From a virus (taxonomy: Duplodnaviria > Heunggongvirae > Uroviricota > Caudoviricetes): DNA of 9,795 bases. Below the pieces are notes generated by a model. It worked only from the letters and a program-made list of their open reading frames with translations. It ran no database searches and was not told where the DNA came from. The stretch's first letter is position 1. Each line of letters starts with the position of its first letter. A program made the translations under genes and the position numbers. The DNA lies in IMG/VR virus record IMGVR_UViG_2711768052_000007, positions 1-9,795 of that record; one strand, written 5' to 3'. Shown here one piece after another: positions 3,237 to 9,680 of this stretch.

Positions 3237-4292
3237 TTAACCAATTTTTACGGTAACAAATTTGCGGATATCTGCCGGAACCGGCTGTGGTGCGCTGTGC
3301 GTCTGCACGTATTCAATCGACGGATCGCCGCCCTCAATCCAGTTTTTCGGGTAGTACATGTTTCGCGTTGCGCCAGTTCTTACCGCTTCCTGATCCATAA
3401 TCGCGCCATAGGCCACCAGTCCTTTATTGCTGGTATTACCCAGAACAAGCAAATCAGGCTCAAGGAAATATTTTTCCGTTCCGTCGCCGTCAGTGTATTT
3501 ACCGGAATAAACGATAAGGGCCAGATCGCCAAGATAGCCTTTAAAGCTCACCACTTCGCCCAGGTTTTTACACGCCAGCTCTGCGGCGGATTCTGAACCA
3601 CGGGAAAGATCGTACAGTTCACGAAATTTTTTAAAGCTGCGTAACGTGCGCCATACCTCAACGCCCATAATCATGACGTTGGCGGGGCAACCTGCCTGAT
3701 CGGTGTACAGTTCGATGTCATAAATTGGATCGTGCGTTTCCTTGTCAGCCTCTGACCACTTTTTACCTTGTCCCTGCGTAATGATGTTTTTAGTCGGGAT
3801 TTTCCAGTCGATTTCGTATCGATTTATACCTTCGCCTTCAATGATGTTTTTCCCGGTCGTGACTGCATTCACCGCCAGCCATTCCACACGCGCTTTAATG
3901 GAATTTACCTGGCGGCGCATGTTGCCCGTAATCAGGCGCATACGACGGTATGTAGGGTCGTTAAGCTGTGCTGGATCTTCACCAGCCATGCGTATGATGG
4001 TTTTTGATGGATCGATTTCGTGTTTGGGTTTCATGTAGCCAGGGCGGATAGTGCTTGTTTCGTACCCTTTATCTCGCTGAACCTGGCTACCCACCATAGG
4101 CGAACAAAACGCCGACATGGTGACTTCTTCAATATCCAGGGTATCTAACATGATGTCCTGCGTGTTGAAGGTCGCCACGTTCGGGAAAAACAGCGACGTA
4201 AACAGCGGACTAAATTTAAAATCTGGAATATCCTGGCGATTCAGATATGTAAAAAGCTGATGCGTGTTAAGCGCCTGCGCTTTGTCTGTCAT
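3237..4292 (-). CDS. Major capsid protein (lambda gpE-like)
   Basis: 351 aa with conserved blocks shared with lambda E: FKFSPLF, PGYMKPKHE, EDPAQLNDPTYRRMR, VVSFKGYLGDLALIVYSGKY, VLGNT, YPKNW, GDP, SAP. The start ATG overlaps the upstream stop (ATGA). Confidence 0.9.
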   Translation of the reverse strand: MTDKAQALNTHQLFTYLNRQDIPDFKFSPLFTSLFFPNVATFNTQDIMLDTLDIEEVTMSAFCSPMVGSQVQRDKGYETSTIRPGYMKPKHEIDPSKTIIRMAGEDPAQLNDPTYRRMRLITGNMRRQVNSIKARVEWLAVNAVTTGKNIIEGEGINRYEIDWKIPTKNIITQGQGKKWSEADKETHDPIYDIELYTDQAGCPANVMIMGVEVWRTLRSFKKFRELYDLSRGSESAAELACKNLGEVVSFKGYLGDLALIVYSGKYTDGDGTEKYFLEPDLLVLGNTSNKGLVAYGAIMDQEAVRTGATRNMYYPKNWIEGGDPSIEYVQTHSAPQPVPADIRKFVTVKIG

Positions 4293-4498
4293 TGCTCACC
4301 CCCATGAGTCTGATTCATGCCAAGCGCAGCGCGTAAATGGCTGCGTACCATCCAACCAACTGACGGCTTCACCATGCACAACGGATCAAGGCCGACTTTT
4401 TTGCCTGCTTCTGCGTTCTCCTCAAAGCGCGCATTAAGTGCCGCGATAATATCGGGGCTGATGTATACGGATACACCGCCCAGCTTCTGTGTTCCCAT
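4289..4498 (-). CDS. Hypothetical small protein (69 aa), translationally coupled to the capsid gene
   Basis: ATG at 4498-4496 is preceded by AGAGGA, and the stop overlaps the capsid ATG. The upstream part of the track ORF (to 4564) has no RBS. Confidence 0.4.
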   Translation of the reverse strand: MGTQKLGGVSVYISPDIIAALNARFEENAEAGKKVGLDPLCMVKPSVGWMVRSHLRAALGMNQTHGGEQ

Positions 4499-4550
4499 AA
4501 ATGAAATTCCTCTTTGACTAAAAAACAAACATAACGAAAAATCAGTCATG

Positions 4551-4580
4551 ATTTTAATCATCATTGCATTTTTTGCAATG
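4551..4580 (-). promoter_or_regulatory. Putative sigma70-type promoter for the head/packaging operon with an overlapping inverted repeat
   Basis: On the minus strand, -35 TTGCAA (4578-4573), 16-bp spacer, -10 TAAAAT (4556-4551). The 7-bp inverted repeat CATTGCA-N5-TGCAATG (4562-4580) overlaps the -35 and spacer. Confidence 0.3.
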
Positions 4581-4675
4581 CAATTGACTATTATTGCAAA
4601 TCATGAAAGTATAATTCCGCGGTTTTACCTTGTATCGTAGAGTTGTTAGCATCAATCACGTTAACGGCATGAAAT

Positions 4676-4709
4676 CCCCCCGGAACCTCATCCCGGGGGG
4701 ATTTTTTTT
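4676..4709 (+). terminator. Strong plus-strand intrinsic terminator
   Basis: 8-bp GC stem CCCCCCGG/CCGGGGGG (4676-4683 / 4693-4700) with a 9-nt loop, followed by A and T8 (4702-4709). Confidence 0.6.
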
Positions 4710-4713
4710 GCGC

Positions 4714-4741
4714 ACAAAAAAGCCGTGAAAAATCCCGGCTT
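4714..4741 (-). terminator. Minus-strand intrinsic terminator after the SSB-like gene
   Basis: On the minus strand, hairpin AAGCCG-N10-CGGCTT is followed by TTTTTT. It lies about 15 bp downstream of the alternative-frame TAA stop at 4758-4756. Confidence 0.45.
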
Positions 4742-4755
4742 CTGTCACTCGTTGC

Positions 4756-5122
4756 TTAAAACGGTATGTTATCCCCGTACGGATCATCATTTCCCGCCTG
4801 TTGTTTTGCCCTGTTCAGTGCGTCAGTAGCCTGGCCCTGTTGACCTTTTTTGCCGCCCGGGCGCGCCGTTCTGGCCTGTCCACTGGCTTACCTGCATGTT
4901 ACCCGCCACGCTCACAAGTTCGCCTTTCTGGTGCTTTGCCAGTGCGTCGGCCTGTCTGCCAAACGCCAGGACGGATAACCACATCGTCGCCGTTCCGTCA
5001 TCTGCCTGGCTGCACGGCAGGGGAACCGCCATACTCGCCATCGCCATTTGTGTCCCTTTGCTGGTGGTCTTTAACTGCGGGTCAGCCACCAGCCGCCCGT
5101 AAGCCGCTATCTGTGCTGTCAT
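4756..5122 (-). CDS. SSB-like single-stranded DNA-binding protein with an apparent +1 frameshift near an A6 tract
   Basis: The track ORF (4823..5122) shows an SSB-like OB-fold pattern (GRLVADPQL..., WLSVLAFGRQADALAKHQKGELVSVAGNMQVSQWTGQNG versus E. coli SSB [40 protein letters not shown]). The +1 frame downstream of the A6 run (4846-4851) continues to ...AGNDDPYGDNIPF and stops at 4758-4756. IPF is the hallmark C-terminal tip of bacterial SSBs. Confidence 0.5.
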
Positions 5123-5370
5123 GATTCCACCTCTCCGGTTTTAACATTGATGGTTGTCACCTGTTCCGCTTCGGCAATCTCCCGTTCTGTCAGCGTGGCA
5201 AAGTTTGCTGCCGCCGTGGTCATGAATGCGCTTATCAGTTCGGGGTGTGCTTTCGCGTATCCTTCCCCGGCATGGCGGTCTATCGTTCTGATTGCCACCT
5301 TTAAGGCGTGCTCTGTCATGTCTAATGCGCGATATTTTGGCGCTGTCTTATCTCTGGTTTTTCTGGTCAT
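5119..5370 (-). CDS. Hypothetical protein (83 aa) between the origin and the SSB-like gene
   Basis: ORF with ATG at 5370. Its stop overlaps the SSB-like ATG (ATGA). No family recognised. Confidence 0.45.
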   Translation of the reverse strand: MTRKTRDKTAPKYRALDMTEHALKVAIRTIDRHAGEGYAKAHPELISAFMTTAAANFATLTEREIAEAEQVTTINVKTGEVES

Positions 5371-5379
5371 TCCTCACTG

Positions 5380-5573
5380 CTCCCCACTTTTACTACCCAC
5401 TTTTTGAAATTACCCAACGTCTCCCCACTTCTTTTTTTTGTGATTCTAACGTGATGTTTTTCAATGTATTTTTTATTCCCCACTTTTTGGGGTATATACA
5501 GGTGGGAAAGTGGGGAATCGCGTTTCAATTTTGTTAAATTCCCCATACTCCCCACTTTTACTACCCACTTTTT
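5380..5573. repeat. Iteron-type origin of replication candidate
   Basis: An identical 26-bp direct repeat CTCCCCACTTTTACTACCCACTTTTT occurs at 5380-5405 and 5548-5573. The short motif TCCCCACTT occurs at 5381, 5422, 5477 and 5549, with an inverted copy AAGTGGGGA at 5508-5516. An AT-rich spacer lies at 5431-5476. The region is immediately 3' of the Rep-type gene. Confidence 0.6.
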
Positions 5574-6987
5574 ACAGTGGGCGCACGTCATCACCGTCAA
5601 TAGCAATAACGCCATCACCTTCCAGCTTGTACAGCCAGCGCCGGAAGTGTTTCATCTCATACCCCAGCTTTTTCATATCATCGCGCAACAACGGAATTGT
5701 GCATTTATCGCCGCGCTGTGTGCGTGAACGGATACAGCCCCATAGCGCGGCATGATTCTCCGTCTTGTTCCCGGCTTCCTCGATGCGCTCCAGTTCAACG
5801 GGTGGGCGCGGTTTATCCACAACCACCAGCGACGTGATTAACTCCTTGTCAGCGTCGGTAAAAAGCTCCACCACACGTAAATCGTATGCAGCCTCTTTCA
5901 GTTCCTCCGCGTCCTTCATTTTGGTGCAGGAGATAACCAGGGCTTCACTGTCTGCACCTTCACGGCGAATACGGTATTCAGCGTCCAGAGATGCACGAAA
6001 TGCACTGGAACCACGCGCCCCCTTTGTTTCATCCTTGCCGGAATGGTGAACCACCAGCACCGTGGCCCCTGTGCGGCGTTTCAGTTCGTCACATCCACGG
6101 ATAAACGCCCCCATATCCCGCGCGTCATTTTCATCATTACCGCCAAAGCAACGCGCCAGCGTATCAAGAATAATCATGCGTACCGGTTTACCCGTTTCCC
6201 GTTCAACCTGGCGGGAAGCGATGACCATTTCATCAACATCAAGCGGGACTGCCGGAAAAATCGGGCGGTTTACCAGGTACAGATTTTCCACCCGTTCATC
6301 ATTAACGATTTCCCATGCCTTGATACGGCGGGGGACACCAATGCCACCTTCACCGACAACATACATCACCGAACCATGCGCCACCCTGCGGCCTCCCCAG
6401 TGACGGCCAGTGGCAACATGACACGCCCAGGAACACGCGAGGAACGATTTATAGGAACCGCTCGCGCCGTATGTGCTGCACAATGAATTAGCCGGAATCA
6501 CGCCCTTAACGACATAATCAAGCTGTGTGTCGTACCCTGCAGATCCAATGCTCATTGGTAGCGTGGTTTTTCGCTGGCTGTATTGCTCGTCAGTAAGTAT
6601 TTCCCCGCGCTCTGCCTGTTCGCGGATCCGTTGCAGGTAGTCGTGCCAGTTCTCCAGCTTCTGGCTGTGCATTCCATCAGGGTAATAATTCGCATCCCGT
6701 ACACCTGCCGCCGCCAGCTTTTGCCCGATAGCATTAATATTTGACGGCTTGATGTGGCCTGCCTTGTACAGCCGGACACAATAGCGACCATCGTCGATGA
6801 TTTTCAGGTCTGCCAGTTCGTCAAGCTGGCTGTCTCCAAGCCATACGGGTGGCACGTTGTCGCCAGCAAGTCGCCCGTCCTGTTCCTGCCATTGTTTCGC
6901 GTGCGCCCAGGCATCACTACCCGCAAAAATAATGACTTCGGTCATTTTGTCGTGTGGCTGTTTTTTTAAGTTCGGTGCCAGTTTCAT
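5572..6987 (-). CDS. Replication initiator / helicase-type ATPase (RecA-like P-loop NTPase with C-terminal winged-helix)
   Basis: 471 aa with a Walker A-like YGASGSYKSF, then MIILDTLAR and VLVVHHSGKDETKG blocks typical of RepA/DnaB-like satellite and plasmid replication ATPases. The C-terminus looks like a DNA-binding domain. The start ATG overlaps the upstream stop (ATGA). Confidence 0.75.
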   Translation of the reverse strand: MKLAPNLKKQPHDKMTEVIIFAGSDAWAHAKQWQEQDGRLAGDNVPPVWLGDSQLDELADLKIIDDGRYCVRLYKAGHIKPSNINAIGQKLAAAGVRDANYYPDGMHSQKLENWHDYLQRIREQAERGEILTDEQYSQRKTTLPMSIGSAGYDTQLDYVVKGVIPANSLCSTYGASGSYKSFLACSWACHVATGRHWGGRRVAHGSVMYVVGEGGIGVPRRIKAWEIVNDERVENLYLVNRPIFPAVPLDVDEMVIASRQVERETGKPVRMIILDTLARCFGGNDENDARDMGAFIRGCDELKRRTGATVLVVHHSGKDETKGARGSSAFRASLDAEYRIRREGADSEALVISCTKMKDAEELKEAAYDLRVVELFTDADKELITSLVVVDKPRPPVELERIEEAGNKTENHAALWGCIRSRTQRGDKCTIPLLRDDMKKLGYEMKHFRRWLYKLEGDGVIAIDGDDVRPL

Positions 6988-7498: not shown

Positions 7499-7957
7499 GG
7501 CTTACATCCTCCGTGAATTTTCTTCTGTACCGTGCCTCTGCCACATATTCAGCATAGTCCGACGCAATAATAAGAATATCGTTGCCGGTTCCTGAATGTT
7601 CAGCGGTTCCAATTAAAAAACATGCGGCCTTTATCAGGTCATTAACAGCCAGCAACGCATCGCCTGTATCATCCGGTGCGCCATCAAATTCCTGTTTCAG
7701 GGCATTAAAACGATCATCACGCATAACCCCCCCCCATTTTCACAATCAGCAATCAGGATGGCTTTGGCCTCATTCAGTGCCATATCAGCGGTAAGCTGTG
7801 CGTAGGCCAGCGAATGGGGGATTATTGCCCCTGTATACTCCGGCTCTCTGGTAATGTGTTTTTCTGCGGTTGCTGCCGTGCATGAAATATCAATCAGCGC
7901 GTGCATCAGCGTAGTGAGCGCGGCGGCTGCTGCGTCCGGACGTGGGTTATTGCACAT
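7491..7957 (-). pseudogene. Hypothetical protein split into two ORFs at a G9 homopolymer (frameshifted or phase-variable)
   Basis: ATG at 7957-7955 has a strong RBS (AGGAGGT, 5-nt spacer). The frame runs to a stop at 7699-7697 just after the G9 tract (plus-strand C9 at 7727-7735). The 77-aa ORF 7491..7724 continues in the +1 frame, and one extra G would fuse both into about 157 aa. Confidence 0.4.
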
Positions 7958-8249
7958 GGCGCACCTCCTGACGAATACGGGCGGCGAATACAGCGACACA
8001 ACCGGACGGGCAACGGTTACGCGCTTCGCGTTCTGTCCATGCGGTGACGTGGATGATTTGAGATTCTCCGGCACTCAGTGCCAGAAAACGCCACACAAAG
8101 GCCGTTTGTGTGTGCGCTAGGCGTGGGGTATGCTGTGTTCCAGCCATAATCGTTACCTCGTTTAACGGTTTGGTTAGAAGCCCCGTTACTGCTCCAACAG
8201 TGCGGGGCTTCGTCGTTTCAATTGCTGAATTGCATGTATCAGCCCTTGT

Positions 8250-8316
8250 GGTATTCAGATTACATTTTGGTGAATACCATTTCAAGTCTTTTTTGGTATT
8301 CACTTTTGTATTACAC
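8250..8316. promoter_or_regulatory. Operator-like repeats GGTATTCA(C) upstream of the ribbon-helix-helix gene
   Basis: GGTATTCA at 8250-8257; a perfect 9-bp inverted pair GTGAATACC (8270-8278) and GGTATTCAC (8295-8303); a degenerate copy GTATTACAC at 8308-8316. A candidate -10 TATTAAT lies at 8327-8333. Confidence 0.35.
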
Positions 8317-8346
8317 TGCATCCCGTTATTAATCGGAGGTGCAAAC

Positions 8347-8652
8347 ATGTCCACGAGTTCTGTTAACAATAAGTCACAGCAACTGAATGCCAGATTTCCA
8401 CATGAAGTAGTGAGTGGCATTGAGGCATCCCTACAGCCAGGGGAAACTAAAGCGAATTTTATAGTTACGGCTGTACGCGGTGAGATCGCCCGCCGCCAGG
8501 CAGAAGGAAGCGGAGAAAATCCCCTGGTTTCTTCGCTCGATGCACTGGCGCAGGTGGAAAAAATCGGAGTCAAAGCAGCCGAGGAGATCGGGCAACTCGT
8601 CACCGTCGCGCGTGAAGAACTCCAGCGCCGCAAGGCCAAAGAGCAGGAATAG
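8347..8652 (+). CDS. Ribbon-helix-helix (Arc/CopG-like) DNA-binding protein, putative island regulator
   Basis: 101 aa with a strong RBS (GGAGGTG, 5-nt spacer). The N-terminus (QQLNARFPHEVVSGIEASL...ANFIVTAVRGEIARR) fits the beta-strand plus two-helix RHH pattern. It is the only convincing plus-strand gene in the island. Confidence 0.55.
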   Translation: MSTSSVNNKSQQLNARFPHEVVSGIEASLQPGETKANFIVTAVRGEIARRQAEGSGENPLVSSLDALAQVEKIGVKAAEEIGQLVTVAREELQRRKAKEQE

Positions 8653-8656
8653 CCCC

Positions 8657-8675
8657 ACCGGAATTTTTTTCCGGT
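8657..8675. terminator. Hairpin between convergent genes (possible bidirectional terminator)
   Basis: ACCGGAA-TTTTT-TTCCGGT lies 5 bp after the RHH stop and abuts an out-of-frame minus-strand TAA. There is no long U-tract on either side. Confidence 0.3.
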
Positions 8676-9143
8676 TACGCTTTGCCCACCAGCCGCAAAT
8701 GTGGCATTGTTGGTGATGCGTTCAAGTTTGATTTGCCGTAATACCCACTGGCGACCCTTTGCGGTCGCCTTTGTTTTGCCTGTTATCCGGCAATTGTGGC
8801 GCTTCGCCACACGGTTGATATAATCCCACTGCTCAGATTCATTTTTTGCGCAGTAGGTTAATTGTTCGCAAGGGCGCTCCGGCAACGGGGCGCTTTTTGT
8901 TTTTATTAGTTTGTAGAAAACTGACTCAGAGATAATGCTCATATTCTGATTGCCGTCAGGGGGGTAAGTTAAATTTACTCCCTTTTCATCAAGCATCTGC
9001 AACGCTCTGGCGTTAATAATATTGGTTTCACTCCCGCCAATAAGGCCGGAAATAACCGGAATAATTTCAGCGAAATTTTGCAGATTCTGGTTTTCAGGCC
9101 GAACGAAGCCCCGCCCCTGTACAGGCGTATATCCAGTATTCAT
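8675..9143 (-). CDS. Hypothetical protein with a weak Bro-N/Ant-like motif; C-terminal frame unresolved
   Basis: ATG at 9143. The first 150 residues or so look protein-like, and ISESVFYKLIKTKSAP resembles the SESGLYxLIxRSRKPEA motif of Bro-N/Ant-type proteins. The in-frame ORF has no stop until 7947 and runs antisense through the RHH gene; a TAA in the +1 frame at 8677-8675 is the likely true end. Confidence 0.4.
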
Positions 9144-9195
9144 GGTTAAATCTCTGTATTAGTGGATGGGTGGCGGCTGTGTGCCGCCAGCCTGA

Positions 9196-9384
9196 TTAGT
9201 GAACTGCCTCGCGGCTGTCCTTCCATGCCAGAACTTCGGATAAAGACCAGCCAACGGAACGACCACCGAGTTTACGCCGTGATGGGAATTGTCCAGTCTT
9301 CTCCAGGCGATACCGACATGAGCGGCTCAGGCCTGTAAGTTGCTGACATTCTTTTTCACGTATAAAGCGATCTGTGCTTAACAC
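9196..9384 (-). CDS. alpA: AlpA-family (Xis-like HTH) transcriptional regulator
   Basis: The C-terminal 62 aa (VLSTDRFIREKECQQLTGLSRSCRYRLEKTGQFPSRRKLGGRSVGWSLSEVLAWKDSRE) matches the AlpA pattern. A GTG start at 9384-9382 is preceded by AAGGGGGA. The track ORF's upstream 36 codons are low-complexity and lack an RBS. Confidence 0.7.
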   Translation of the reverse strand: MLSTDRFIREKECQQLTGLSRSCRYRLEKTGQFPSRRKLGGRSVGWSLSEVLAWKDSREAVH

Positions 9385-9680
9385 AATTCCCCCTTTGTTG
9401 TTTCTTAAAGAGTCATTGGGTGGATTATTGGGTTGGGTTGTGTCGGATTGTGTCAGGGTGTTTATGGAATGGCAAACACTGGTGGCGGTCATTTTACAGA
9501 AGTGGGGGTAGTGAGAATAAAAATCCTTTTAATTCATTATGATGTAAAGGCATAAAATTCTGTTTTTACGCCTTTTTTACATGTTTTTAAGAGTGATTCG
9601 CCAATGTACAAAAAGCCAGTAAAACGACTGAAAATCAACTTTTTAGGGTGTCAGTCAGATGATAATCAAGTTTGTTCCAG

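What the first reader, a model, noticed from the sequence alone, without database searches (positions are those of the whole stretch)
4584..4709. Candidate small RNA of about 90 nt between the head operon promoter and the rep-module terminator
A strong plus-strand terminator (8-bp GC stem plus T8) sits in a region where all flanking genes are on the minus strand. A perfect TATAAT is at 4610-4615, though its possible -35 elements are badly spaced (TTGACT 20 bp upstream, TTGCAA 10 bp upstream). That implies a short, structured plus-strand transcript from about 4622 to 4709 with no credible ORF. Satellites often use small RNAs for immunity or helper sensing.
Basis: inference. Interest (0 to 1): 0.45.

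Follow-up and report, generated by a model that had tools for sequence, protein, structure and literature searches.

The report
Conserved small RNA gene in PICI satellites
A roughly 90-base non-coding RNA gene, with its own promoter and terminator, sits back-to-back with the capsid-operon promoter of an E. coli phage satellite; the same unit is kept in about 590 E. coli genomes and in several other enterobacteria, but nobody has described it and its target is unknown.

Summary
A perfect 12-bp hairpin (4672-4683/4693-4704, eight G-C pairs, 9-nt loop) followed by T8 lies on the plus strand among minus-strand genes. No hairpin of this kind appeared in 200 shuffles of the window.

The element is an EcCICFT073-type phage-inducible chromosomal island (PICI) of E. 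coli, inserted next to smrA.

Comparative data support a short plus-strand transcript. 77 distinct intergenic sequences were compared, plus relatives from Salmonella, Edwardsiella, Serratia and a metagenome. All keep the same layout:
- a shared operator;
- a -35 (TTGACT/TTGAGT), 17 bp, then a TGn-extended -10;
- a 67-93-nt body that occurs in many unrelated alleles;
- a hairpin with T6-T9 on the same strand.

At least seven unrelated hairpins fill the terminator slot, always in this orientation.

The conserved promoter is TTGACT(4584-4589)-17-TGaAAGTAT (TG 4604-4605, -10 4607-4612), which puts the start near 4619.

Limits: there are no expression data. Covariation is weak. The body is not unusually structured. 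The -10 overlaps an operator half-site, so its conservation is ambiguous. No target, no Rfam family and no publication was found. A C/U-rich CCUC motif recurs in exposed positions.

Verdict: a probable new sRNA gene of a known kind, function open.

The parts
4289..4498 (-). First gene of the capsid (head) operon, 69 aa. PHROG 3255, function unknown. Its stop overlaps the capsid start.
   Evidence: ORF and translation. RefSeq relatives annotate the 68-69-aa form. phrog_3255 at E = 2e-25, no Pfam match. AlphaFold2 model with pLDDT 76, three helices, no significant PDB fold match.
4551..4578 (-). Head-operon promoter P_head: -35 TTGCAA (4578-4573), 16 bp, -10 TAAAAT (4556-4551).
   Evidence: Promoter scan. 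In the large clade the equivalent is TTGCAC-17-TATAAT. Activity is inferred.
4562..4580 (.). Operator-like palindrome O1, CATTGCA-N5-TGCAATG, covering the -35 and spacer of P_head.
   Evidence: Perfect inverted repeat I11. Conserved in E. coli, Salmonella, Edwardsiella and metagenome relatives. The binding protein is unknown.
4584..4589 (+). -35 hexamer TTGACT of the plus-strand promoter P_sRNA, 5 bp from the -35 of P_head (back-to-back divergent promoters).
   Evidence: Sequence. TTGAGT in 54 and TTGACT in 19 of 77 sequences scored. The Salmonella copy was picked up by the promoter scan as TTGACT-17-AATGAT with TG.
4593..4609 (.). Second operator-like site O2, ATTGCA-N5-TGAAAG. It overlaps the spacer and the TG/-10 of P_sRNA.
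   Evidence: Half-sites seen. Edwardsiella has a full second palindrome CATTGCATAAAGTGCAAT at this place. The reading as an operator is an inference.
4604..4612 (+). Extended -10 of P_sRNA: TG (4604-4605), one base, then the hexamer AAGTAT (4607-4612).
   Evidence: A TGn-extended -10 was located in 77 of 79 sequences. Over the 49 distinct promoter strings (these plus the Serratia and metagenome copies), T-15, G-14, A-12, A-11 and A-8 are invariant and T-7 is at least 90% conserved, while -9 varies. Hexamers: AATGAT 53, AATTAT 14, AATCAT 7, AATAAT 2, AAGTAT 1.
4610..4615 (+). It is specific to the window's lineage and overlaps the conserved -10 by 3 bp.
   Evidence: Alignment. It is present again only in L171, which is identical to the window here.
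4619..4709 (+). Predicted non-coding RNA of about 91 nt. The start is inferred as the 7th base after the -10, give or take 3; the end is the T-run.
   Evidence: In relatives the same unit is 67-93 nt long. No Rfam family matches.
4619..4638 (+). 5' hairpin: GCGGU (4619-4623) paired with AUCGU (4634-4638).
   Evidence: MFE fold. 100% of cells are paired in 9 relatives, with GC to GU twice, UA to CG once and UA to UG once. Statistically weak.
4642..4668 (+). Possible second hairpin: GUUGUUAGC (4642-4650) paired with GUUAACGGC (4660-4668).
   Evidence: MFE fold. 89% of cells are paired in relatives. An alternative stem is favoured in L008 and L010. Uncertain.
4672..4709 (+). Intrinsic terminator of the RNA: 12-bp stem, loop AACCUCAUC (4684-4692) carrying a CCUC motif, then U8.
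   Evidence: (I3). The window has one extra C and one extra G relative to its relatives, a compensated insertion. L169 has a C-to-U change that gives a U-G pair.
4716..4741 (-). Terminator of the SSB/replication operon, convergent with the RNA's terminator and back-to-back with it. In the window it is weakened by T4726, where relatives have G.
   Evidence: -11.6 kcal/mol, followed by U6. Shared with many other E. coli elements, whose homology stops at about 4698-4716.
4757..5122 (-). SSB gene, frameshifted in the window. The conserved C-terminal tail NDDPYGDNIPF is in another frame and ends at the TAA at 4757-4759.
   Evidence: Three-frame translation. Intact 140-aa SSB in relatives.

Best explanation
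Positions 4584-4709 are a self-contained gene for a small non-coding RNA.

**Promoter.** A sigma-70 promoter with an extended -10 (TTGACT 4584-4589, 17 bp, TG 4604-4605, AAGTAT 4607-4612) fires rightwards. It stands back-to-back with the promoter of the satellite's capsid operon. The two promoters share a cluster of ATTGCA/TGCAAT operator half-sites. O1 lies over P_head and O2 lies over P_sRNA, so one DNA-binding regulator probably controls both (inferred).

**Transcript.** Transcription starts near 4619 and stops at the 12-bp hairpin plus U8 (4672-4709). It therefore never runs antisense into the convergent SSB/replication operon, whose own terminator lies 7 nt beyond.

**Product.** The RNA is about 91 nt:
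- a weak, fast-evolving 5' hairpin;
- a largely single-stranded body;
- a terminator hairpin with an exposed C/U-rich (CCUC) loop;
- a U-tail.

This is the layout of a base-pairing regulatory sRNA.

**Most likely mode of action (inferred, not shown).** The RNA pairs through the exposed C/U-rich or variable segment with the ribosome-binding region of an mRNA. That mRNA could belong to the helper phage, the host or the satellite.

**What is shown and what is not.** The sequence architecture and its conservation are shown. The transcript itself, its regulator and its target are not.
For: **Hairpin and T8.** They are real and beyond chance.

**Conserved architecture.** Every one of 77 distinct intergenic sequences from E. 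coli genomes and IMG/VR contigs has the same order of parts. The order is: operator, -35, 17 bp, TGn-extended -10, a 67-93-nt body, and a hairpin with T6-T9 on the same strand.

**Unrelated terminators in one slot.** Seven hairpins with no sequence similarity fill this slot, always with the T-run on this strand:
- window clade: AAATCCCCC(C)GG;
- large clade, which includes EcCICFT073: AAAGCCCGATAAG;
- Salmonella: CCCGCCAG;
- Edwardsiella: AAAAGCCCCCC;
- Serratia, a metagenome contig and a third E. coli clade.

**Not just part of the opposing terminator.** In L014-type islands this hairpin lies 170 nt from the minus-strand terminator.

**T-run asymmetry.** There are 6-9 T on the plus side, but only 3-4 U would follow the hairpin on the minus strand.

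**Promoter conservation.** The bases that matter most for an extended -10 promoter are the best conserved over 49 distinct promoter strings, while -9 and the start region vary. T-15, G-14, A-12, A-11 and A-8 are invariant, and T-7 is at least 90% conserved. The neutral promoter scan scored the Salmonella copy at 9/12 with TG.

**Body alleles.** The body occurs in at least six unrelated alleles flanked by a conserved promoter and terminator. Allele B replaces the 3' arm of the 5' hairpin with a different sequence that still pairs with the same 5' arm.

**Substitutions in the 5' hairpin.** The window's changes keep pairing: UA to CG, and GC to GU twice.

**CCUC motif.** It recurs in the terminator loop or the linker in 5 of 7 lineages.

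**No conserved ORF**.

**Spread.** The window-type unit is in 22 of 5426 complete E. coli genomes, and the large-clade type in 567-571.
Against: - No transcript data of any kind were available. No paper on these islands mentions such an RNA.
- The TG and AA of the -10 coincide with an operator half-site (TGCAAT/TGAAAT). Their conservation could therefore reflect protein binding rather than promoter function.
- Covariation is weak. There is one double change, and 54 of 500 shuffles reach it.
- The 5' bodies are not more stable than shuffles (z between -1.7 and +1.5, with one at -3.25).
- The reverse complement folds better in 35 of 45 alleles. Folding energy therefore does not point to the plus strand.
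- No target was found. Nothing exceeded chance within the island, in lambda translation-start regions or in 50,697 phage records.
- The CCUC motif is short and is missing in 2 of 7 lineages.
- Three more distant relatives lack the unit: Lelliottia (57% capsid identity), a Salmonella type (52%) and one metagenome contig (63%).
Confidence: 0.6

Rival explanations
1. The plus-strand promoter is real, but the RNA has no function of its own. On this view it is only the divergent partner of the capsid-operon promoter: promoter competition, or a by-product of the shared operator. The terminator is kept solely to stop antisense transcription from running into the convergent SSB/replication genes.
For: - The body evolves fast and occurs in many unrelated alleles.
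- The body is not more structured than shuffles, and covariation is weak.
- No target was found.
- The terminator is replaced by unrelated hairpins. That is what selection for 'any terminator here' would give.
Against: - Length is held to 67-93 nt, and a hairpin stands at or near the 5' end in 8 of 11 alleles.
- Allele B keeps pairing with the constant 5' arm through a different sequence.
- A CCUC motif is exposed in 5 of 7 lineages.
- The linker AACCUCAUAUGCAAAAG is nearly invariant across the large clade, although the 5' part varies.

None of these points is decisive.
Confidence: 0.25
2. The RNA acts in cis as an antisense RNA. It pairs with transcripts of the replication operon that read through the SSB terminator towards the capsid operon. 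This would trigger their decay or termination and so insulate the late (capsid) genes from early transcription.
For: - The RNA is convergent with the replication operon, and its terminator is only 7 nt from that operon's terminator.
- Any read-through transcript is perfectly complementary to it.
- On the minus strand the hairpin is strong (-26 kcal/mol) but has a poor U-tract, so read-through RNA would carry the full complement.
- The large clade has a further 12-bp hairpin plus U6 just downstream of the -10 of P_head. That hairpin would stop read-through, which suggests that insulation matters here.
Against: - The RNA overlaps no annotated gene or mapped untranslated region. It lies between the SSB stop (4757) and the P_head start (about 4543).
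- The replication-operon terminator has a good stem and U6 in relatives, so read-through may be rare.
- The idea does not explain the allelic diversity or the CCUC motif.
Confidence: 0.15
3. There is no plus-strand transcript. The hairpin is a second, back-up or bidirectional terminator, or a 3'-end stabiliser, for the minus-strand replication operon. The promoter-like motif is only the operator of the capsid operon.
For: - The hairpin folds slightly better on the minus strand (-26.0 against -23.9 kcal/mol).
- The TG/AA of the putative -10 coincides with an operator half-site.
- In the Salmonella island no separate minus-strand terminator follows the upstream gene.
- There is no expression evidence.
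Against: - In all seven lineages the long T-run is on the plus side, and only 3-4 U follow the hairpin on the minus strand.
- A dedicated minus-strand terminator with U6 already stands next to it.
- In L014-type islands the two are 170 nt apart.
- The distance from the promoter-like motif to the hairpin is held at 67-93 nt while the sequences change.
- A -35 sits at exactly 17 bp, and A-8 and T-7 are conserved outside the operator half-site.
Confidence: 0.1
4. The transcript is a short mRNA for a micro-protein.
For: - An ATG at 4669 opens a 19-codon frame in the window.
- In the CFT073 allele an 18-codon frame starts 5 nt from the predicted 5' end.
Against: - No frame is shared between alleles.
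- The window's frame shifts with the C-run length, runs through the terminator, and starts with GTG in some relatives.
- The F allele lacks the AUG of the C allele.
- No frame has a Shine-Dalgarno sequence. The nearby motif is the opposite (CCUC).
Confidence: 0.02

Closest known systems
Trans-acting, terminator-ended sRNAs carried by prophages and islands of E. coli (e.g. DicF, Esr41/EcOnc14)
   Same: It is an intergenic, independently transcribed RNA of about 70-90 nt that ends in a G+C-rich hairpin plus poly-U. It is carried on a horizontally acquired element and has no ORF. Esr41 is described in just these terms (PMC8565820; PMC5286369).
   Different: There is no sequence or Rfam relationship. 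Esr41 lies in SpLE1/OI-43, not in this kind of island. Binding to Hfq and the targets are unknown here. This RNA is tied to one position, divergent from a satellite's capsid-operon promoter, and is highly polymorphic.
Phage lambda oop RNA and phage P22 sar RNA (short phage antisense RNAs; from my own knowledge)
   Same: It is a short (about 70-80 nt), constitutive-looking transcript inside a phage regulatory region. It ends at an intrinsic terminator and is oriented against the neighbouring operon.
   Different: oop and sar overlap a defined mRNA (the cII 3' end; the arc-ant junction). The candidate overlaps no annotated transcript, only possible read-through. There is no sequence similarity.
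Satellite phage P4 CI RNA (immunity RNA; from my own knowledge)
   Different: CI is processed out of the leader of P4's early operon. It acts by pairing with repeated complementary sites in the same transcript to cause termination. Here the RNA has its own promoter and terminator, and no complementary repeats exist in the island beyond chance: the longest match is 11 nt at E = 0.15. PICIs and P4 are separate families (PMC6092414).
SviR, the sRNA of the Vibrio cholerae satellite PLE (from my own knowledge; not retrieved here)
   Same: It is a satellite-encoded sRNA reported to regulate both satellite and helper-phage genes. It is the nearest functional precedent for what this RNA might do.
   Different: The satellite family, the host and the helper are all different. 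No sequence was available to compare. No complementarity to helper phage lambda was found here.
EcCICFT073, the model Gram-negative PICI
   Same: The window's element has the same gene set: AlpA, DUF4222, a RepA helicase or primase, SSB, capsid-E and decoration-D homologues (c1499/c1500) and a Nu1-like Rpp protein. EcCICFT073 itself carries the large-clade version of this RNA unit.
   Different: The published work on EcCICFT073 that I could read mentions no RNA, promoter or terminator at this place. The window's copy is 79-89% identical to its closest relatives in the intergenic region. Its terminator is unrelated to the one in CFT073.

Membership tests
Intrinsic (Rho-independent) terminator, plus strand | A G+C-rich stem-loop directly followed by a run of at least 6 U on the transcribed strand. 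| tested here: met
   12-bp perfect stem with 8 G-C pairs, 9-nt loop, U8. None of this kind in 200 shuffles. Termination activity itself was not measured.
Intrinsic (Rho-independent) terminator, plus strand | Orientation is kept in relatives (U-run on the same strand). | tested here: met
   T6-T9 on the plus side in all 77 E. coli/IMG-VR sequences and in the Salmonella, Edwardsiella, Serratia and metagenome copies. Only 3-4 U on the other side.
Sigma-70 promoter with extended -10 | TG at -15/-14, a -10 hexamer with A-11 and T-7, and a -35 hexamer 16-18 bp upstream. | tested here: met
   TTGACT-17-TGaAAGTAT in the window. A TGn-extended -10 was located in 77 of 79 sequences. A-11 is invariant and T-7 at least 90% conserved over 49 distinct promoter strings. 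Caveat: TG and AA coincide with an operator half-site.
Sigma-70 promoter with extended -10 | Drives transcription in vivo. | not testable with these tools
   No transcriptome or reporter data were accessible.
Base-pairing (Hfq- or ProQ-associated) trans-acting sRNA | An independent, non-coding transcript of 50-300 nt that ends in a terminator hairpin plus U-tail. | tested here: met
   By sequence only: a predicted 91 nt, no conserved ORF, U8 tail.
Base-pairing (Hfq- or ProQ-associated) trans-acting sRNA | A conserved single-stranded seed complementary to target mRNAs. | tested here: inconclusive
   A CCUC-containing segment is exposed in 5 of 7 lineages. No target above chance was found in the island, lambda or the phage database. 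Host genomes could not be scanned.
Base-pairing (Hfq- or ProQ-associated) trans-acting sRNA | Binds an RNA chaperone. | not testable with these tools
   Only circumstantial: a few related islands carry a ProQ/FinO-family gene next to the unit.
Cis-antisense RNA (oop or sar type) | Overlaps a defined transcript on the opposite strand. | tested here: not met
   4619-4709 lies between the SSB stop (4757-4759) and the predicted P_head start (about 4543), and no annotated feature overlaps it. Overlap with read-through RNA cannot be excluded.
P4 CI-type satellite immunity RNA | Processed from the leader of the early operon and complementary to repeated sites in that operon. | tested here: not met
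   It has its own promoter and terminator, on the strand opposite to every operon. The longest internal match is 11 nt at E = 0.15. No Rfam hit.
Any curated Rfam family | Reaches the family's gathering score. | tested here: not met
   The best hits are terminator look-alikes far below threshold: ncr1175 at 32.9 against 60 bits and rli38 at 30.7 against 49 bits. Nothing was found in the other lineages.
EcCICFT073-type PICI (the element that hosts the RNA) | AlpA regulator, primase or helicase replication module, and Nu1-like Rpp with capsid-E and decoration-D homologues, inserted at a chromosomal site. | tested here: met
   Pfam hits: AlpA, DUF4222, HDPD, Nu1-like HTH. Capsid family PF03864. 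The RepA-type helicase (AAA_25) is annotated in relatives. Same gene order as CFT073 and annotated relatives. Inserted next to smrA. The integrase lies outside the window.

The most novel reading that the evidence does not exclude
This would be a previously unrecognised, hypervariable family of satellite-encoded regulatory RNAs, defined by position and architecture rather than by sequence. The RNA would be co-controlled with the PICI capsid operon through shared operators. It would use exposed C/U-rich (anti-Shine-Dalgarno-like) and allele-specific segments to silence translation of helper-phage or satellite late genes. That would make it an RNA layer in the satellite-helper conflict, with the allelic diversity reflecting an arms race or helper specificity.
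Probability: 0.2. Interest if true: 0.75.

Novelty: new member of a known kind. Interest (0 to 1): 0.5.

Why it matters
EcCICFT073-type islands are the model Gram-negative phage satellites. Their known control elements are proteins: AlpA as activator and Rpp for redirecting packaging. How the capsid-gene operon is regulated is not described, and the role of the island's capsid and decoration genes is unexplained (PMC6092414).

A conserved RNA gene wired back-to-back with that operon's promoter would add a regulatory player. It is present in EcCICFT073 itself and in about one in nine complete E. coli genomes, including O157:H7, O55:H7 and O145 strains.

The idea can be tested directly in an existing genetic system, CFT073 or C600 carrying EcCICFT073 with helpers lambda or phi80. 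If the RNA acts on helper or host mRNAs, it would extend satellite-encoded RNA control from P4 and the Vibrio PLE to the PICIs.

If it proves to be only a terminated divergent transcript, the finding still maps the promoter, operator and terminator layout of the module boundary.

Tried and rejected
**Rfam.** I scanned the window and 12 related loci at permissive thresholds. Only sub-threshold terminator look-alikes came up.

**Esr41/EcOnc14.** I checked whether the RNA is this known EHEC sRNA. It is not: Esr41 lies in SpLE1/OI-43. Sakai's element at the same chromosomal site (Sp7, a capsid-forming PICI) lacks this unit altogether.

**Literature.** Searches by element name, by topic and by literal sequence strings found nothing on this RNA. 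One CFT073 Ribo-seq preprint could not be opened.

**Target searches.**
- blastn-short against five whole islands gave at most 11 nt.
- Searches of the phage collection gave only chance-level hits. The stretch from the 69-aa gene to the SSB stop (4289-4760) has no homologue in phage records.
- Duplex scoring against 65 lambda translation-start regions gave a best score equal to the mean of shuffled controls. The ViennaRNA call also returned implausibly large energies, so it was used only relative to those shuffles (a first attempt timed out).
- The 5' loop of allele B (UCACCCC) matches the capsid Shine-Dalgarno sequence GGGGUGA. The other alleles do not, so I dropped this lead.

**Strand test by folding energy.** It failed. 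The reverse complement folds better in 35 of 45 alleles.

**The 69-aa protein as the operator-binding regulator.** I suspected a ribbon-helix-helix repressor. There is no Pfam or PDB sequence match. The AlphaFold2 model (pLDDT 76) has no significant fold match; the TraM and DinJ ribbon-helix-helix domains appear only at E > 4. This remains unresolved.

**Genome contigs.** The scan with the capsid protein found no relatives. Distant relatives were reached instead through the protein database and contig look-ups.
Full report
**What is in the sequence**

The window is E. coli DNA; smrA at 1-564 is 99% identical to many strains. It carries a phage satellite whose credible genes from smrA to the AlpA gene all read leftwards.

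Capsid module:
- a 69-aa gene (4289-4498);
- a lambda-E-type capsid gene (3237-4292);
- a decoration-D homologue;
- a Nu3-like protein;
- a Nu1-like HTH protein.

Replication module:
- SSB;
- an 83-aa gene;
- a RepA-type helicase (5572-6987);
- a DUF4222 gene;
- AlpA (9196-9492).

This is the gene set of EcCICFT073, the model Gram-negative phage-inducible chromosomal island (PICI). Its c1499 and c1500 are the capsid and decoration homologues (PMC6092414).

The finding lies in the 258-bp gap between the two modules.

**Checking the observation**

- The hairpin is real. The arms 4672-4683 and 4693-4704 are perfectly complementary, the loop is AACCTCATC, and T8 ends at 4709.
- It folds at -23.9 kcal/mol, z = -3.6.
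- A scan for perfect stems of at least 9 bp followed by at least T6 found this site alone in the window. It found none in 200 dinucleotide shuffles.
- Seven bases beyond the T-run begins a second hairpin with U6 on the other strand (4716-4741). It is the terminator of the SSB operon. The two terminators are convergent and back-to-back.

**Relatives**

- The full intergenic region occurs in 22 of 5426 complete E. coli genomes, at 79-89% identity.
- A larger clade shares only the promoter/operator part at the DNA level. It occurs in 567-571 genomes, including CFT073, O157:H7, O55:H7 and O145 strains.
- IMG/VR supplied 80 more loci. Together these gave 76 distinct related intergenic sequences, 77 with the window's own.
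- Capsid homologues at 54-68% identity led to copies in Salmonella, Edwardsiella, Serratia, a metagenome contig and a third E. coli clade.
- The capsid-forming PICI of O157 Sakai (Sp7) shares the replication module but not this unit. The unit therefore travels with the capsid-E/decoration-D module.

**The repeated architecture**

In every copy the order of parts is the same:
1. the ribosome-binding site and 5' leader of the leftward capsid operon;
2. that operon's promoter;
3. a palindrome CATTGCA-N5-TGCAATG;
4. a rightward -35 (TTGAGT in 54 sequences, TTGACT in 19);
5. exactly 17 bp containing TTGCAA;
6. TG, one base, then a hexamer (AATGAT 53, AATTAT 14, AATCAT 7, AATAAT 2, AAGTAT 1);
7. a body;
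8. a hairpin with T6-T9 on the plus strand.

The predicted RNA is 67-93 nt long.

Seven hairpins of unrelated sequence occupy the terminator slot, and all have the long T-run on this strand. On the other strand only 3-4 U would follow. In L014-type islands the hairpin stands 170 nt from the opposing terminator, so it is not merely part of that terminator.

I regard this repeated replacement, with position and polarity preserved, as the strongest evidence that transcription really comes from the left and must stop here.

**The promoter**

L171 is identical there, while other relatives read TATCAT, CATCAT or TATCAC.

The conserved promoter lies 3 bp upstream and has correct spacing: TTGACT, 17 bp, TGaAAGTAT. 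Over 49 distinct promoter strings the invariant positions are T-15, G-14, A-12, A-11 and A-8. T-7 is at least 90% conserved, whereas -9 and the start region vary. The neutral scan scored the Salmonella copy at 9/12 with a TG.

One caveat matters. TG-N-AA(T) is also a degenerate copy of the operator half-site TGCAAT. ATTGCA-N5-TGAAAG (4593-4609) looks like a second operator, and Edwardsiella has a full palindrome at that place. Promoter and operator overlap, so part of the conservation may serve protein binding.

The layout suggests two back-to-back promoters whose -35 hexamers are 5 bp apart. O1 would cover P_head and O2 would cover P_sRNA, with one regulator for both. This is an inference, and the regulator is unidentified. 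The 69-aa protein was a candidate, but it has no significant sequence or fold match.

**The RNA**

*Fold.* From about 4619 to 4709 the window's RNA folds into three elements:
- a weak 5' hairpin (4619-4623/4634-4638);
- a possible second hairpin (4642-4650/4660-4668);
- the terminator.

*Covariation.* In nine window-clade sequences the 5' hairpin is paired in 100% of cells, although 4 of its 5 pairs vary (GC to GU twice, UA to CG once, UA to UG once). There is only one double change, and 54 of 500 shuffles reach it. This is consistent with structure but is not proof.

*Allele B.* It replaces about 35 nt of the body. The new sequence still pairs with the unchanged 5' arm, GUGGUUU with AAACCGC.

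*Terminator changes.* The window's terminator has one more C and one more G than its relatives, a compensated insertion. L169 has a C-to-U change that gives a U-G pair.

*Evidence against structure.* The 5' bodies of 11 alleles are not more stable than shuffles. The reverse complement folds better in 35 of 45 alleles. The large z-score of the whole RNA (-4.5) therefore comes from the terminator.

*Coding.* No ORF is shared among the alleles.

*CCUC motif.* A C/U-rich CCUC motif is exposed in 5 of 7 lineages:
- in the terminator loop of the window clade (AACCUCAUC), the large clade (CCACCUCUGACC, GCCUCCUGUAC) and Salmonella (GCCUCCUCUUG);
- in the linker of the large clade (AACCUCAUAUGCAAAAG) and Serratia (UUUCCUCAAAGG);
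- in the 5' hairpin loop of the metagenome copy (CCUCCCU).

The motif resembles an anti-Shine-Dalgarno seed, but it is short.

**Function**

No target emerged:
- nothing beyond an 11-nt chance match inside five whole islands;
- nothing above chance in 50,697 phage records;
- no lambda translation-start region better than the shuffled controls.

No Rfam family matches. It is not Esr41, which lies in SpLE1. No paper that I could search mentions an RNA, promoter or terminator at this spot.

My best account is an independent sRNA gene co-regulated with the capsid operon. It probably acts by base pairing on a ribosome-binding region. I rate the existence of the transcript at about 0.75 and a function for the RNA itself at about 0.4-0.5.

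The rivals are:
- a terminated divergent transcript with no function of its own;
- a cis-antisense guard against read-through from the replication operon;
- no plus-strand transcript at all, with the hairpin serving only minus-strand transcripts;
- a short mRNA for a micro-protein, which I consider very unlikely.

**Comparison and novelty**

In kind this is an ordinary, terminator-ended intergenic sRNA gene on a mobile element. That is what prophage sRNAs such as DicF or Esr41 are.

It is not a member of any curated family. It fails the defining features of oop- or sar-type antisense RNAs, because it overlaps no defined transcript. It also fails those of P4 CI RNA, because it is not processed from a leader and has no complementary repeats.

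What is new is that the PICI family, including its model member, carries such a unit at a fixed place. The unit shows unusual allelic turnover.

I score it as a new member of a known kind, with interest 0.5. It is well supported by comparison and easily testable, but it lacks expression data and has no known target.

Noticed in passing
window 4757-5122 (minus strand): The SSB gene is frameshifted in the window. The reading frame stops at 4823-4825, and the conserved acidic tail NDDPYGDNIPF continues in another frame down to the TAA at 4757-4759. L171, which is identical in the intergenic region, encodes an intact 140-aa SSB.
   Followed up: partly
window 4716-4741 (minus strand): The SSB-operon terminator is weakened in the window. 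T4726 replaces the G of relatives and breaks the GCCGGG/CCCGGC stem. Many unrelated E. coli elements share the SSB 3' end plus this terminator, and their homology stops at about 4698-4716. That position therefore looks like a module boundary.
   Followed up: partly
L154 (CFT073), L151, L014-L095: leader of the capsid operon, just downstream of the -10 of P_head: The large clade has a 12-bp hairpin, CATAACTGGATG-AA-CATCCAGTTATG, followed by U6 in the capsid-operon leader. It would be complete only in transcripts arriving from upstream (read-through). Transcripts starting at P_head would carry a truncated version. It may be an insulator or attenuator. The window clade lacks it.
   Followed up: no
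L015 2711-3695; L151 8616-8888; L152 31773-32045: The slot between SSB and the RNA unit carries variable cargo. In a few islands it is a ProQ/FinO-family RNA-chaperone gene, whose terminator is back-to-back with the RNA's terminator. In many others it is a PerC-family regulator (PchE in O157 Sakai).
   Followed up: no
L014 2650-2830 and similar loci (L018, L021, L027 and others): A 170-nt A+T-rich insert separates the two terminators. On the strand opposite the RNA it holds a 19-codon frame (MMVAVNFCSTSLQADKKAR). Its stop codon lies inside the RNA's terminator stem, so the RNA would be antisense to its 3' end. It may be nothing, or it may be a toxin-antitoxin-like pair.
   Followed up: no
window 5361-5574: Three to four direct repeats (TTTTACTACCCACTTTTT and variants, spaced 83-85 bp) lie just downstream of the helicase gene. 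This is where PICI replication origins are reported to lie.
   Followed up: partly
window 4537-4616: The whole promoter region has imperfect dyad symmetry (arms 4556-4579 and 4593-4616, 75% complementary) built from four ATTGCA/TGCAAT half-sites. The protein that binds them is unknown.
   Followed up: partly
window 7725-9195: The 398-aa minus-strand ORF (7947-9143) has an odd composition and no counterpart in annotated relatives. Those relatives instead have small plus-strand genes (YlcI/YnfO family) and Icd-like genes in this area. The integrase lies beyond the right end of the window.
   Followed up: no
L156 5801-5954: The Salmonella island ends with a hok/sok toxin-antitoxin locus (Rfam sok, 109 bits), followed by thiamine genes with a weak TPP-riboswitch match.
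   Followed up: no
L005/L159 (strain TUM1881): This island has the window-type intergenic region (about 87% identical) but a capsid protein only 62% identical to the window's. Recombination has therefore occurred between the RNA unit and the capsid gene.
   Followed up: no
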